The position numbers and the translations under genes are program-made. Of a DNA stretch of 64,000 bases, positions 9,920 through 10,940 are shown one piece after another. The notes under the pieces were generated by a model. That model had not been told where the DNA came from, made no database searches, and saw only the letters and a list, made by a program, of their open reading frames with translations. Position 1 is the stretch's first letter; each line of letters opens with the position of its first letter. Location of the stretch: positions 137,984-201,983 of the forward strand of contig CAVVWO010000007.1 of assembly GCA_963752075.1 (NCBI GenBank), given 5' to 3'. This DNA is from an uncultured Acidimicrobiia bacterium. Its GTDB lineage: Bacteria; Actinomycetota; Acidimicrobiia; Spongiisociales; JAENVV01.

Positions 9920-10397
9920 GGTGCGCTATTTCGAGTTCTTCGCTGGCGATATCCTTCGAGGAGAGGGCGAGGTTCGGCCCGGTCCACTTGATCGGAAATG
10001 CTCTGTCGACGACCCAGGTTCGCAATACCTCGCCGCTCTTGGTCACGAGTGATATCTGCACTGGGAACCACGGGACGGCTTGGCCGGCCTCGGCCAAGCG
10101 AGCGTTCTGTTCGTATCCGCTCCCGCTGGTGATCGAGAACCAGTTGAAGAGGCCGTCGTTTTGTACGACTCCCCGTTTCAAGACGATGTTCGGCCACGTC
10201 ATGCGCCCCGGCCGTTTGTGCTCGAACTGGTTCTGGCCGCCTTCTCGGATCGTCTCTGGTTCGGCCGAAACCGACAGACCGCTCACTTCGTGGAAGGAGC
10301 CCATCCAGGTCCACTCGCGTGTCCCGCTGTAATCGATTTCGAGATCGAACGACTGTGCGGCGACGATGCTGCCCCACTTCTTGGTTCTGTCAGCCAA
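9891..10397 (-). CDS. Tube protein paralog 2 (T4 gp19 family, Afp5-like)
   Basis: FDLEIDYSG...FHEVSGLSVSAEPETIREGGQNQFEHKRPGRMTWPNIVLKRGV matches the eCIS tube family. The TTG start overlaps the upstream small ORF by 8 nt. Confidence 0.8.
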   Translation of the reverse strand: MADRTKKWGSIVAAQSFDLEIDYSGTREWTWMGSFHEVSGLSVSAEPETIREGGQNQFEHKRPGRMTWPNIVLKRGVVQNDGLFNWFSITSGSGYEQNARLAEAGQAVPWFPVQISLVTKSGEVLRTWVVDRAFPIKWTGPNLALSSKDIASEELEIAHHGFKSTTLV

Positions 10398-10563
10398 GGC
10401 GTTTCACCTCCTCCCACGCTCGCTCATTCAGGCCTGCCACTGCCCCAACCATTCGACCGCGGTCACCGTGCTCGAGGTCGAGCAGGGTGTCCATTGCCCA
10501 ATGGAGGTGGTAGCCGAGGTATGCGATCTCGGACCAGACGTCGTCTACCGCATACGTTTTCAG
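10390..10563 (-). CDS. DUF6760-like small ORF in the -1 frame of the chaperone gene (CTG start, or expressed as a frameshift extension)
   Basis: The translation LKTYAVDDVWSEIAYLGYHLHWAMDTLLDLEHGDRGRMVGAVAGLNERAWEEVKRLG resembles small proteins conserved in actinobacterial eCIS loci. There is no ATG, GTG or TTG between the upstream in-frame stop and the conserved part; only a CTG that overlaps the chaperone stop (CTGA). Confidence 0.5.
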   Translation of the reverse strand: MKTYAVDDVWSEIAYLGYHLHWAMDTLLDLEHGDRGRMVGAVAGLNERAWEEVKRLG

Positions 10564-10940
10564 GAAGCCGTTTCCGCCAATTCCTCCAGCTGGGGATCCA
10601 CGAAAGGGACTCCGTCGTCCATCTCCTCGAGTACGGCTGGGTCACCGAAATTGATGATCCCGTAGAGGTCCTGGAGATACGAAAGGTCAGCCGTGAACAG
10701 CTCCTCGATCGTCTTGGTGGTCACTTCGTCGAGGGTTCCCAGCTTGGTGATGACTCGAGAGAGGATCACCACGGTCAAGTACGCCTCGTTCTCTATGACC
10801 CGGCGATCCCGCAGCGGAGCGATCTCGTCGCGTGCGGTTGCCAGCCGCATCGTTCCCTTACGGTGCAATGTCCCGCTGGAGTCGACGTATCCCTTGGGAA
10901 GGGTGAAGCTGTACTCCGTTTGCAGGCTCACTTCGACCAC
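10560..10940 (-). CDS. Tail assembly chaperone, P2 gpE-like
   Basis: It sits between tube and tube-2/tape-measure as gpE does in P2. FTLPKGYVDSSGTLHRKGTMRLATARDEIAPL...ITKLGTLDEVTTKTIEELFTADLSYLQDLY fits the eCIS/phage TAC pattern. The start is GTG at 10940, or GTG at 10931 forming GTGA with the tube stop. Confidence 0.6.
   Translation of the reverse strand: MVEVSLQTEYSFTLPKGYVDSSGTLHRKGTMRLATARDEIAPLRDRRVIENEAYLTVVILSRVITKLGTLDEVTTKTIEELFTADLSYLQDLYGIINFGDPAVLEEMDDGVPFVDPQLEELAETAS
10602..10608 (-). other. Candidate -1 programmed frameshift heptamer C CCT TTC
   Basis: In the chaperone frame the codons are GTC CCT TTC, giving an X XXY YYZ heptamer 13 codons before the stop. A -1 slip here enters the open frame that continues into the DUF6760-like ORF. 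Confidence 0.3.

What the first reader, a model, noticed from the sequence alone, without database searches (positions are those of the whole stretch)
10390..10940. Possible G/GT- or E/E+E'-type programmed -1 frameshift in the CIS tail-assembly chaperone
Seen in sequence:
- The gpE-like chaperone ORF ends at TGA 10560-10562.
- The conserved DUF6760-like ORF lies in its -1 frame. It has no ATG, GTG or TTG upstream of its conserved N-terminal part, only a CTG forming CTGA with the chaperone stop.
- Thirteen codons before that stop lies C CCT TTC (10602-10608), a canonical X XXY YYZ heptamer in the chaperone frame.
- The -1 frame is open from just upstream of the heptamer (stop near 10633) through to 10390.
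- Slippage would yield a fusion protein of about 183 aa.
- The gene order sheath, tube, chaperone pair, then tape measure mirrors phage P2 (FI, FII, E/E+E', T).

Established knowledge: a -1 frameshift near the 3' end of the tail chaperone gene is conserved in long-tailed phages, giving two products at a fixed ratio.

Inference: this CIS may retain that mechanism. To my knowledge it has not been highlighted for eCIS.

Caveat: the window contains other apparent indels, so a lost start codon or an assembly error is an alternative explanation.
Basis: partly seen in the sequence, partly recalled or inferred. Interest (0 to 1): 0.65.

Follow-up and report, generated by a model that had tools for sequence, protein, structure and literature searches.

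The report
Frameshift in injection-system tail chaperone gene
A phage-tail-like injection system in this bacterium very probably makes a second, longer form of its tail-assembly chaperone by a programmed -1 ribosomal slip, as phages P2 and lambda do; the slip site is conserved in many relatives, and this explains a small "unknown function" domain (DUF6760) that gene finders often miss.

Summary
On the minus strand, a tail-assembly-chaperone (TAC) gene (10931..10560) carries C CCT TTC (10608..10602) 13 codons before its stop. The DUF6760 ORF (10563..10390) lies in its -1 frame and has no ATG, GTG or TTG.

In the window alone the heptamer is weak evidence. Comparison makes the case. In 24 of 24 relatives that lack a DUF6760 start or share this chaperone clade (Acidimicrobiia, Micromonosporales, Amycolatopsis, Catenulispora, a Dehalococcoidia MAG), the site reads NNC CCT TTN:
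- The rare Pro codon CCT is used 24/24 times, against 0/69 at other conserved prolines.
- The preceding codon always ends in C, although it encodes eight different amino acids.
- F changes to L while TTT is kept.
- Residue 1 of DUF6760 is CTA, TTA or CTG, overlapping the stop.

All 57 sampled relatives with their own ATG/GTG start lack the heptamer. More distant DUF6760 loci use other slip sites (T TTT TTA/G, G GGA AAG, G-runs). One locus is fused in frame.

DUF6760 weakly resembles the E' extension of P2.

Verdict: a P2 E/E+E'-type -1 frameshift in an eCIS. It is a new member of a known kind and was not found in the literature searched. No expression data exist.

The parts
10560..10931 (-). 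Tail assembly chaperone (TAC) gene, 0 frame. It starts at GTG 10931 (GTGA overlap with the tube stop) and ends at TGA 10562-10560, giving 123 aa (MSLQTEYSF...ELAETAS).
   Evidence: ORF. PHROG 508 'tail assembly chaperone', E 2.3e-9. The start is inferred from homologs that begin (M/V)SLQTEY. The AF2 N-domain has pLDDT 83-91.
10602..10608 (-). Slippery heptamer C CCT TTC (Pro-Phe in the 0 frame; CCC TTT after a -1 slip).
   Evidence: NNC CCT TTN is present in 24/24 loci of the clade. CCT is used 24/24 times here and 0/69 times at three other conserved Pro columns. The third base of the preceding codon is C in 24/24 loci across 8 different amino acids.
10563..10601 (-). 0-frame tail made only without slippage (VDPQLEELAETAS). 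It carries the [RS/Q][VIL]EE[VIL]-like motif that also ends the chaperones of start-codon-bearing relatives.
10564..10602 (-). -1-frame linker read only after slippage (RGSPAGGIGGNGF). It is Gly-rich and predicted to be disordered.
   Evidence: pLDDT below 50 for residues 112-138. Relatives have Gly-rich -1-frame linkers (...RGGGL...).
10390..10563 (-). DUF6760 domain ORF in the -1 frame. Its first codon is CTG (Leu), forming CTGA with the chaperone stop. It has no start codon of its own. Stop at TGA 10392-10390.
   Evidence: Pfam PF20546, E 3.7e-7. No in-frame starts. Purifying selection in this frame across the clade: entropy by codon position 21.2/13.3/35.8. AF2 three-helix model, pLDDT 94.
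10642..10644 (-). Stop codon (TGA) that closes the -1 frame 11 codons upstream of the heptamer. It sets the 5' limit of any productive slip.
   Evidence: The same 26-codon open stretch is seen in L001 and L017.
10928..11359 (-). Tube protein 1 (T4 gp19 family), immediately upstream.
   Evidence: Pfam PF06841, E 2e-32.
9891..10397 (-). Tube protein 2 (T4 gp19 family). Its TTG start overlaps the end of DUF6760.
   Evidence: Pfam PF06841, E 1.9e-29.
7310..9919 (-). 869-aa ORF of strongly biased (R/S/P/A-rich) composition, lying directly upstream of the LysM tube-initiator and VgrG genes. Its position and character match a tape-measure-related (Tme-like) protein, the presumed client of the chaperone.
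   Evidence: ORF, with no Pfam hit. Its C-terminus ...RRGGRYQGSF resembles that of the L061 homolog...RRGGRYGGSF. The analogy to S. davawensis Tme comes from PMC11126660. This is an inference.

Best explanation
The region is the tail-assembly-chaperone module of an extracellular contractile injection system (eCIS). It is organised like P2 E/E+E' and lambda G/GT.

Most ribosomes translate the chaperone gene (10931..10560) to its TGA and make a 123-aa protein that ends ...PFVDPQLEELAETAS.

A fraction of ribosomes slip back one base. This happens when CCU is in the P site and UUC is in the A site of C CCU UUC (10608..10602). The two tRNAs re-pair on CCC and UUU. These ribosomes then read a Gly-rich linker and the 57-aa DUF6760 domain, giving a 180-aa fusion (...DDGVPF-RGSPAGGIGGNGFLKTYAVDDVW...).

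By analogy with lambda G/GT and P2 E/E+E', the shared N-domain would coat the tape-measure-like protein (7310-9919). The frameshift-only DUF6760 domain would recruit tube subunits or the initiator complex. The slip efficiency would set the ratio of the two forms.

Shown:
- the anatomy;
- TAC homology;
- DUF6760 identity;
- nucleotide-level conservation of the slip site;
- its co-occurrence with absence of a start codon;
- purifying selection on DUF6760.

Inferred:
- that slippage actually occurs;
- its efficiency;
- the binding partners.
For: 1. Anatomy is confirmed.

2. The chaperone is a TAC: PHROG 508, E 2.3e-9. The locus is an eCIS with sheath, two tube genes, LysM/CIS_tube, VgrG, Baseplate_J, eCIS_core, Pvc16_N and an AAA ATPase.

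3. Across the window plus 80 genome loci:
- 20 loci have CCCTTT[C/A/T/G] in the chaperone frame, with DUF6760 in the -1 frame and no ATG/GTG.
- 57 have their own start and no heptamer. In these, DUF6760 lies in any of the three frames.

4. In most no-start loci the codon at DUF6760 residue 1 is CTA or TTA, and neither is a start codon. The Dehalococcoidia MAG, an Illumina assembly, has C CCT TTG and a CTAA overlap, and gene callers leave a gap there.

5. Conservation goes beyond the protein:
- Pro is CCT in 24/24 loci, while CCT is about 7% of Pro codons locally and 0/69 at other conserved Pro columns.
- The preceding codon is NNC in 24/24 loci, across V/H/I/S/T/A/R/D.
- F changes to L (TTA/TTG) while TTT is kept.
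- In-frame CCCTTT occurs at about 6e-5 per codon in other ORFs.

6. DUF6760 in these loci shows coding-type variation: entropy by codon position 21.2/13.3/35.8.

7. L081 encodes chaperone and DUF6760 as one in-frame 167-aa ORF between two tube genes.

8. Of 21 distant DUF6760 loci from IMG/VR, most again have the domain in the -1 frame of a TAC without a nearby start, with other slip sites: T TTT TTA/G (the P2 type), G GGA AAG (the lambda type) and G-runs. The TACs tested (L098, L099, L102) hit phrog_508 or phrog_150; L099 and L102 also hit PF12322, and L099 hits PF10109 Phage_TAC_7.

9. PF06528 covers the P2 E' part. Nine of 79 DUF6760 members hit it, best E 0.005. hhalign aligns DUF6760 residues 4-39 with E' residues 98-130, E 9e-4.

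10. Of the 120 closest chaperone clusters, 102 have the short tail with P[F/L] at the slip position.
Against: - No direct evidence of slippage exists: no proteomics, Ribo-seq or reporter data.
- No conserved or unusually stable RNA structure lies downstream. Window z = +0.27, and the alignments show no supporting covariation.
- An upstream GGAG is frequent but not universal, and it is confounded with coding.
- The heptamer-bearing loci form one clade. The Fisher p of 1e-14 therefore counts one evolutionary event, not 20.
- In the window itself the first codon is CTG, a rare but possible start. It overlaps the stop, so coupled re-initiation cannot be excluded for this sequence alone.
- L030 and L043 carry both a heptamer and an ATG.
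- The window assembly has many indels nearby.
- Homology to P2 E' is weak (hhalign probability 22%).
- Foldseek found no PDB match for the chaperone.
Confidence: 0.85

Rival explanations
1. DUF6760 is made as a separate 57-aa protein. Initiation or termination-reinitiation occurs at the CTG that overlaps the chaperone stop (CTGA), and the heptamer is incidental.
For: - CTG is an allowed, rare bacterial start.
- The public annotation of L009 gives the protein as MTTLDPEQVW..., starting on a CTG.
- Most homologs in the sister clade are free-standing 56-57-aa proteins whose Met aligns exactly with this CTG. Several use ATGA or GTGA overlaps.
- L030 and L043 have an ATG at this position as well as the heptamer.
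Against: - In 15 of the heptamer-bearing relatives the equivalent codon is CTA or TTA, which cannot initiate. The heptamer and the open -1 frame are kept all the same.
- The CTG follows from the TGA stop it overlaps.
- The only SD-like sequence, GGAGGA, is about 21 nt upstream, which is poor spacing.
- This reading does not explain the 24/24 use of rare CCT or the NNC before it.
Confidence: 0.07
2. The -1 arrangement in the window is an assembly indel. The true gene is either a single in-frame fusion or has a normal start.
For: - The window's sheath gene (13017..11420) switches frame at least 6-8 times relative to the intact L001 sheath.
- Several related long-read MAG contigs show indel artefacts: P0182 and P0188, and L005, L022, L026 and L027.
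- L076 differs from its relatives by one extra base that fuses the frames.
Against: - The same frame relation, heptamer position and stop overlap occur in L001 and L017.
- They also occur in Illumina assemblies (L061, L084, L085) and in isolate genomes: Actinoplanes spp., Amycolatopsis vastitatis, Virgisporangium, the Phytohabitans flavus chromosome, Catenulispora.
- The chaperone and DUF6760 each read cleanly in the window.
- No read data could be laid on the site.
Confidence: 0.03
3. In this clade the DUF6760 ORF is an unexpressed remnant that lost its start codon. The Pro-Phe dipeptide is conserved for chaperone function only.
For: - The sister clade expresses DUF6760 from its own start.
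- P-[F/L] is conserved at the protein level in 102 of 120 chaperone clusters.
Against: - DUF6760 stays open, and its invariant residues (W10, E12, Y18, H19, W22, D29, H32, R35 and others) are kept across two phyla. Variation is concentrated at third codon positions.
- The F-to-L change keeps TTT.
- Codon choice at the Pro and at the preceding codon is fixed.
- Distant loci have other slip sites at the same place.
Confidence: 0.02

Closest known systems
Phage P2 gpE / gpE+E' (-1 frameshift at T TTT TTG in the FI-FII-E-T tail operon)
   Same: - The chaperone gene lies after the sheath and tube genes and before the tape-measure-type gene.
- The -1-frame extension is about 57 codons, has no start of its own, and is entered a few codons before the 0-frame stop.
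- The P2 E part is PF10109 and the E' part is PF06528. PF10109 hits the TAC of the distant DUF6760 locus L099.
- PF06528 is hit weakly by 9 of 79 DUF6760 members.
- hhalign aligns DUF6760 with E' through a shared D(D/E)L...(F/L)HW...EL motif.
- Distant DUF6760 loci use the same T TTT TTA/G site.
   Different: - The slip site here is C CCT TTC.
- The window's chaperone has no Pfam hit; only PHROG 508 matches.
- A second tube gene lies between the module and the tape-measure-like gene.
- The host is an eCIS of an Acidimicrobiia-like bacterium, not a phage.
- Homology to E' is weak (E about 1e-3 to 5e-3).
Phage lambda gpG / gpGT and the conserved tail-chaperone frameshift of long-tailed phages (Xu et al. 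2004, from my own knowledge)
   Same: - There are two products with a common N-terminus, made by a -1 slip at an X XXY YYZ site near the 3' end.
- The position is conserved while the slippery sequence varies between lineages.
- No obligatory downstream structure is present.
- L101 and L102 carry lambda's own heptamer, G GGA AAG.
   Different: - No sequence similarity to G or T was tested or found.
- The frameshift-only part here is a compact 57-aa three-helix domain, not the larger T domain.
[quoted passage not shown]
   Same: - The tube genes here are of the T4 gp19 type.
- The TACs of distant DUF6760 loci hit PF12322 'T4_baseplate' and phrog_150 'baseplate hub'.
- The AF2 models weakly match T4-like 'baseplate hub assembly protein' and a small cyanophage 'Gp51'.
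- The sister clade here, with separate genes and no frameshift, parallels the non-frameshift solution that the title describes.
   Different: - The paper was not held, so its content could not be compared.
- The window's clade does appear to use frameshifting.
Pfam DUF6760 (PF20546), a family of unknown function
   Same: The ORF is a member: 30.5 bits against a cut-off of 27. All 79 aligned relatives match.
   Different: The family is annotated as free-standing proteins. Here, and in many loci, it is the -1-frame C-terminal extension of a TAC. Some database members carry N-terminal stretches that are -1-frame read-through of the chaperone gene, for example P0037 and P0039.

Membership tests
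Phage-type tail assembly chaperone with programmed -1 frameshift (P2 E/E+E', lambda G/GT) | The upstream ORF is a tail assembly chaperone homolog. | tested here: met
   PHROG 508 'tail assembly chaperone', E 2.3e-9, residues 7-87. There is no Pfam or NCBIfam hit and no PDB fold match.
Phage-type tail assembly chaperone with programmed -1 frameshift (P2 E/E+E', lambda G/GT) | The gene lies between the tube gene and the tape-measure gene. | tested here: inconclusive
   It lies directly after tube gene 1. A second tube gene (10397..9891) intervenes before the 869-aa ORF. That ORF is tape-measure-like only by position, size and composition.
Phage-type tail assembly chaperone with programmed -1 frameshift (P2 E/E+E', lambda G/GT) | A second ORF lies in the -1 frame, overlaps the 3' end and has no initiation codon of its own. 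| tested here: met
   the frame is open from 10641 and contains no ATG, GTG or TTG. Relatives have CTA or TTA at residue 1.
Phage-type tail assembly chaperone with programmed -1 frameshift (P2 E/E+E', lambda G/GT) | A canonical X XXY YYZ heptamer lies in the overlap and is conserved in relatives beyond coding needs. | tested here: met
   C CCT TTC at 10608..10602. 24/24 loci read NNC CCT TTN, CCT is 0/69 at other conserved Pro columns, and the F/L switch keeps TTT.
Phage-type tail assembly chaperone with programmed -1 frameshift (P2 E/E+E', lambda G/GT) | Both the short and the frameshifted product are made, at a set ratio, and both are needed for tail assembly. | not testable with these tools
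   No proteomic, Ribo-seq or genetic data were available. The only sequencing run found did not cover the site.
P2 GpE' domain (Pfam PF06528 Phage_P2_GpE) | The frameshift-only extension matches the family profile. | tested here: inconclusive
   The window's DUF6760 does not hit PF06528. Nine of 79 relatives do, below the Pfam cut-off, with best E 0.005. hhalign against P2 E+E' gives E 9e-4 and probability 22%.
Pfam DUF6760 (PF20546) | The score reaches the family's gathering threshold. | tested here: met
   30.5 bits against 27, E 3.7e-7.
Extracellular contractile injection system (eCIS, Afp/PVC-like) | The core gene set is present: sheath, tube, tube initiator (LysM/CIS_tube), VgrG-type spike, Baseplate_J, Pvc16-type cap, AAA ATPase and an eCIS_core (DUF4157) protein. 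| tested here: met
   The sheath was identified by tblastn and is disrupted by frame changes.

The most novel reading that the evidence does not exclude
Frameshift-dependent TAC-DUF6760 fusion may be the ancestral and general way in which eCIS and related gp19-tube systems make their second chaperone form. It would span several phyla, with slip sites swapped between lineages (C CCU UUN, U UUU UUR, G GGA AAG, G-runs).

One actinobacterial clade would have replaced the covalent link by two separate genes. Its chaperone gained a long Pro/Ala linker that ends in a conserved R-x-R-[VI]-E-E-[IV]-P-R peptide, which may dock non-covalently on free DUF6760.

If so, DUF6760 is the long-unrecognised E'/T-equivalent of CIS. 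Many eCIS annotations would then lack a real protein.
Probability: 0.45. Interest if true: 0.7.

Novelty: new member of a known kind. Interest (0 to 1): 0.62.

Why it matters
The frameshifted tail chaperone is a hallmark of long-tailed phages. It has not, in the literature I could search, been reported for eCIS or cytoplasmic CIS:
- No paper mentions DUF6760.
- Four Streptomyces CIS papers mention no frameshift and no tail chaperone.
- Full-text searches combining 'contractile injection' with frameshift or tail-chaperone terms returned no paper describing one in a CIS.

If the reading is right:
- It assigns a role to a family of unknown function.
- It explains why gene callers leave a gap or call odd ORFs after the chaperone gene.
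- It adds an assembly factor to eCIS biology. This matters to groups that re-engineer these particles for protein delivery and need correct tube length and yield.
- It offers a natural three-way comparison for studying why phage-like machines fix the ratio of two chaperone forms: frameshift fusion, separate genes and in-frame fusion.

Tried and rejected
**Downstream stimulatory RNA.** RNAalifold on two subtype alignments found only helices built from invariant coding columns, or weak helices that start 17-19 nt after the site. The window's 82 nt downstream fold no better than shuffles, z = +0.27. No structure is claimed.

**Upstream SD-like stimulator.** By eye, in the codon table, GGAG lies 8-17 nt upstream in about 20 of 24 loci. 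It coincides with conserved L-E codons and is absent in L017 and L061. It is left as a possibility only.

**Read-level check.** One run was found, sharing 6% of words. Its contigs cover 10911-11231 and not the site.

**Apparent full-length fusions.**
- P0182, P0188 and P0028 contain wrong-frame readings of the RVEEIPR motif and are indel artefacts.
- P0293 (L086), P0158 and P0164 (L082, L083) mix frames around a zinc-ribbon segment or come from contigs with fragmented neighbouring genes. None was used.
- Only L081 was accepted as a natural in-frame fusion.

**Fisher test.** The heptamer-versus-start association gives p = 1e-14. It is not used as independent evidence, because the heptamer loci form one clade.

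**Structure searches.**
- Foldseek against the PDB with the 180-aa model found nothing.
- Sequence searches of the PDB found nothing.
- BFVD matches are weak (E of 4e-3 or higher) and are used only as hints.

**Transcriptional slippage.** Rejected, because the runs are only three bases long.
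Full report
**1. What is in the sequence**

All features lie on the minus strand. The gene order is as follows:
- sheath, 13017..11420;
- tube 1, 11359..10928 (PF06841);
- a 123-126-aa ORF ending at TGA 10562-10560;
- a 57-codon ORF, 10563..10390, matching Pfam DUF6760 (E 3.7e-7);
- tube 2, 10397..9891 (PF06841);
- an 869-aa ORF of strongly biased, R/S/P/A-rich composition, 9919..7310;
- a LysM/CIS_tube protein;
- VgrG;
- Baseplate_J.

A Pvc16-type cap, an AAA ATPase and an eCIS_core (DUF4157) protein lie on the other side of the sheath. The locus is therefore an eCIS.

CCCTTTC sits at 10608..10602, phased C CCT TTC in the chaperone frame, 13 codons before the stop. DUF6760 is in the -1 frame. 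That frame is open from 10641, after TGA 10644-10642, and holds no ATG, GTG or TTG. Its first conserved codon is CTG, sharing TG with the chaperone's TGA.

- The -1-frame stop is at 10644-10642.
- The likely chaperone start is GTG 10931.
- An extra tube gene lies before the tape-measure-like gene.

**2. Is it more than chance?**

Not in this sequence alone. The raw motif is at expectation in the window, 8 found against 7.8 expected. Any in-frame X XXY YYZ is expected about 0.06 times in the 26 codons where a slip could work. The case rests on related loci.

**3. Related loci**

A DUF6760 search returned 27 proteins. Most are 56-57 aa, with a Met aligned exactly to the window's CTG.

The DNA of 80 genome loci shows two architectures.

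*Architecture 1: own start.*
- 57 loci have an ATG or GTG and no heptamer.
- DUF6760 lies in any of the three frames relative to the chaperone.
- The chaperone carries a 50-80-aa Pro/Ala-rich tail that ends in R-x-R-[VI]-E-E-[IV]-P-R.

*Architecture 2: heptamer and no start.*
- 19 of these 80 loci (20 with the window) have a chaperone tail of only 17-22 aa (47 aa in L009).
- CCCTTT[C/A/T/G] lies in frame, usually 30 or 45 nt before the stop.
- DUF6760 is always in the -1 frame.
- The codon at its first residue is CTA, TTA, CTG or TTG (CCG in L070). It overlaps the chaperone stop as CTAG, TTAG or CTGA, except in L070, where the stop lies 14 nt upstream.
- These loci include isolate genomes (Actinoplanes, Amycolatopsis, Virgisporangium, Phytohabitans, Plantactinospora, Micromonospora, Catenulispora, Krasilnikovia) and Acidimicrobiia MAGs.

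*Other cases.*
- L030 and L043 have both a heptamer and an ATG.
- L076 has one extra base after the heptamer, which fuses the frames.
- L029 has an N-extended DUF6760 in the chaperone's own frame.
- A Dehalococcoidia MAG assembled from Illumina reads has C CCT TTG, a -1 frame that opens three codons before it, and a CTAA overlap. Gene callers leave that stretch empty.

**4. Nucleotide-level conservation**

Twenty-four loci were aligned around the site.
- The Pro codon is CCT in all 24. CCT is about 7% of Pro codons in these loci. It is never used (0/69) at three other conserved Pro columns of the same gene.
- The preceding codon encodes eight different amino acids and always ends in C.
- The following codon is TTC, TTT, TTA or TTG, so Phe can become Leu but TTT is kept.

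This is the signature of selection on X XXY YYZ, not on Pro-Phe.

Across the same loci DUF6760 varies mainly at third codon positions (entropy 21.2/13.3/35.8). It is therefore translated in that frame and under purifying selection.

In the Micromonosporales-type loci a second heptamer overlaps the first (T TTC CCN).

Caveat: the heptamer loci form a single clade in a chaperone+DUF6760 tree. The association with start-codon loss (Fisher p = 1e-14) thus reflects one old event that has been maintained since.

**5. Wider family**

*Chaperone homologs.* A search with the predicted 180-aa product found about 6,900 chaperone homologs. Of the 120 closest clusters, 102 have the short tail with P-[F/L] at the slip position.

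*Natural fusion.* One low-GC Logan contig (L081) encodes chaperone and DUF6760 as one uninterrupted 167-aa ORF between two tube genes. The fusion protein therefore exists as a gene product in nature.

*Distant loci.* Most of 21 distant DUF6760 loci from IMG/VR again place the domain in the -1 frame of the upstream gene, with no nearby start. Their slip sites differ:
- T TTT TTA/G, the P2 site;
- G GGA AAG, the lambda site;
- G-runs next to the stop.

L107 has a degenerate site, and L088 has candidate start codons and no heptamer.

Three of these upstream genes were tested:
- L098 hits PHROG 508.
- L099 hits PF10109 Phage_TAC_7, PF12322 T4_baseplate, PHROG 508 and PHROG 150.
- L102 hits PF12322 and PHROG 150.

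A conserved position combined with interchangeable slippery sequences is the pattern known for phage tail chaperones.

**6. What the two parts are**

*Chaperone.*
- The window's chaperone hits PHROG 508 'tail assembly chaperone' (E 2.3e-9).
- It has no Pfam, NCBIfam or PDB relative.
- AF2 models its N-domain with confidence, and models the linker after the slip site as disordered.

*DUF6760.*
- Modelled alone it is a three-helix domain, pLDDT 94.
- It has weak BFVD matches: 53-56-aa myovirus proteins including a cyanophage 'Gp51' (TM 0.73-0.85), and longer annotated tail assembly chaperones at lower TM.

*Comparison with P2.*
- P2 gpE+E' was extracted from AF063097.
- Its E part is PF10109 and its E' part is PF06528.
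- Nine of 79 DUF6760 members hit PF06528, best E 0.005.
- hhalign aligns DUF6760 residues 4-39 with E' residues 98-130 (E 9e-4, probability 22%) through a D(D/E)L...(F/L)HW...EL motif.

I read this as probable but unproven distant homology.

**7. Mechanism proposed**

*The slip.* With CCU in the P site and UUC in the A site, both tRNAs can re-pair one base back, on CCC and UUU. The next codon read is then CGU. The product is ...DDGVPF-RGSPAGGIGGNGF-LKTYAVDDVW... (180 aa).

*The non-slipped product.* It ends ...PFVDPQLEELAETAS. The VEE/LEE-type motif in that tail also ends the chaperones of the separate-gene clade. The 0-frame tail therefore probably has a function of its own.

*Stimulators.* No stimulatory structure was found.

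*Roles.* These are inferred from lambda G/GT and P2 E/E+E'. The common part would bind the tape-measure-like protein, and DUF6760 would recruit tube or initiator subunits.

**8. Rivals**

- *Independent initiation at CTG.* It cannot be excluded for the window alone. It fails for the CTA/TTA relatives and does not explain the codon-level conservation.
- *Assembly error.* It is a real concern for this window, whose sheath gene changes frame at least 6-8 times against the intact L001 sheath. The focal arrangement, however, recurs across sequencing platforms and isolates.
- *Dead remnant.* It is contradicted by purifying selection on DUF6760.
- *Transcriptional slippage.* It is implausible on three-base runs.

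**9. Novelty**

- No paper in the searchable library mentions DUF6760.
- Papers on Streptomyces CIS (PMC10020575, PMC10066040, PMC11126660, PMC13277306) mention no frameshift or tail chaperone in these clusters.
- Searches combining 'contractile injection' with frameshift or tail-chaperone terms found nothing relevant.
- A 2022 Virology paper on T4-like tail chaperones, known here only from its title, could not be read.

The mechanism is a known kind. Its presence in eCIS, the C CCU UUC site and the link of DUF6760 to the E' role appear to be new.

**10. Verdict**

- Confidence is 0.85 that a programmed -1 frameshift makes a TAC-DUF6760 fusion here.
- The frameshift itself remains untested by experiment.

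Noticed in passing
window 11420-13017 (minus strand): The sheath gene is broken into many reading-frame segments. Against the intact sheath of L001 there are at least 6-8 frame switches, while the neighbouring tube, chaperone, LysM and VgrG genes read cleanly. This is either a locally error-rich long-read assembly or a decayed sheath gene.
   Followed up: partly
window 7310-9919 (minus strand): An 869-aa ORF with extreme R/S/P/A composition and no Pfam hit lies immediately upstream of the LysM tube-initiator and VgrG genes. Its C-terminus ...ERRGGRYQGSF is shared with the homolog in L061. It resembles the 'tape-measure-related effector' (Tme) position described for Streptomyces davawensis (PMC11126660).
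   Followed up: partly
L002-L080, the loci with their own DUF6760 start (e.g. L003, L014, L046): Their chaperones carry a 50-80-aa Pro/Ala-rich linker that ends in a strongly conserved R-x-R-[VI]-E-E-[IV]-P-R peptide. A shorter version (VEE/LEE) ends the 0-frame product of the frameshift clade. It may be a docking peptide, possibly for DUF6760.
   Followed up: no
L087-L107 (IMG/VR contigs): Distant DUF6760 ORFs lie in the -1 frame of TAC genes, with slip sites T TTT TTA/G, G GGA AAG or G-runs such as CTG GGG GAA directly before the stop. The G-run sites are not canonical X XXY YYZ heptamers and may work by P-site slippage next to a stop codon.
   Followed up: partly
L031, L036, L045, L047, L051, L059, L060, L067, L069, L070, L075, L078, L079: The Micromonosporales-type site is a ten-base C CCT TTC CCN that contains two overlapping heptamers (C CCT TTC and T TTC CCN). 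It is followed 14-16 nt later by GGAGGTGGG, which reads VEVG in the 0 frame and GGG in the -1 frame.
   Followed up: no
L076 (2970-3040) and L081 (555-1058): L076, a long-read MAG, has one extra base after the heptamer, so chaperone and DUF6760 are in one frame. This could be an error or a natural fusion. L081, a short-read contig from a low-GC organism, is a clean in-frame fusion of 167 aa with no heptamer.
   Followed up: partly
L029, and proteins P0010, P0018, P0020, P0022: This is a third architecture. DUF6760 carries a conserved ~43-aa N-terminal extension (MAEDLQPHELEGWAEKLR...). In L029 it starts right after the chaperone stop and in the same frame. Leu, not Met, occupies the position of the usual start.
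   Followed up: no
window 13588-17307: An eCIS_core (DUF4157) protein (13588-14292, plus strand) is followed by two large ORFs with no Pfam hit (14289-15515 on the plus strand; 15571-17307 on the minus strand). They lie between the sheath and the cap/ATPase genes and are candidate cargo or effector genes.
   Followed up: no
proteins P0037, P0039, P0182, P0188: Some DUF6760 entries in public protein sets are gene-caller artefacts. They are either -1-frame ORFs extended upstream over the chaperone gene or frame-mixed products of indel-bearing contigs. Family alignments built from them may therefore carry spurious N-terminal columns.
   Followed up: partly
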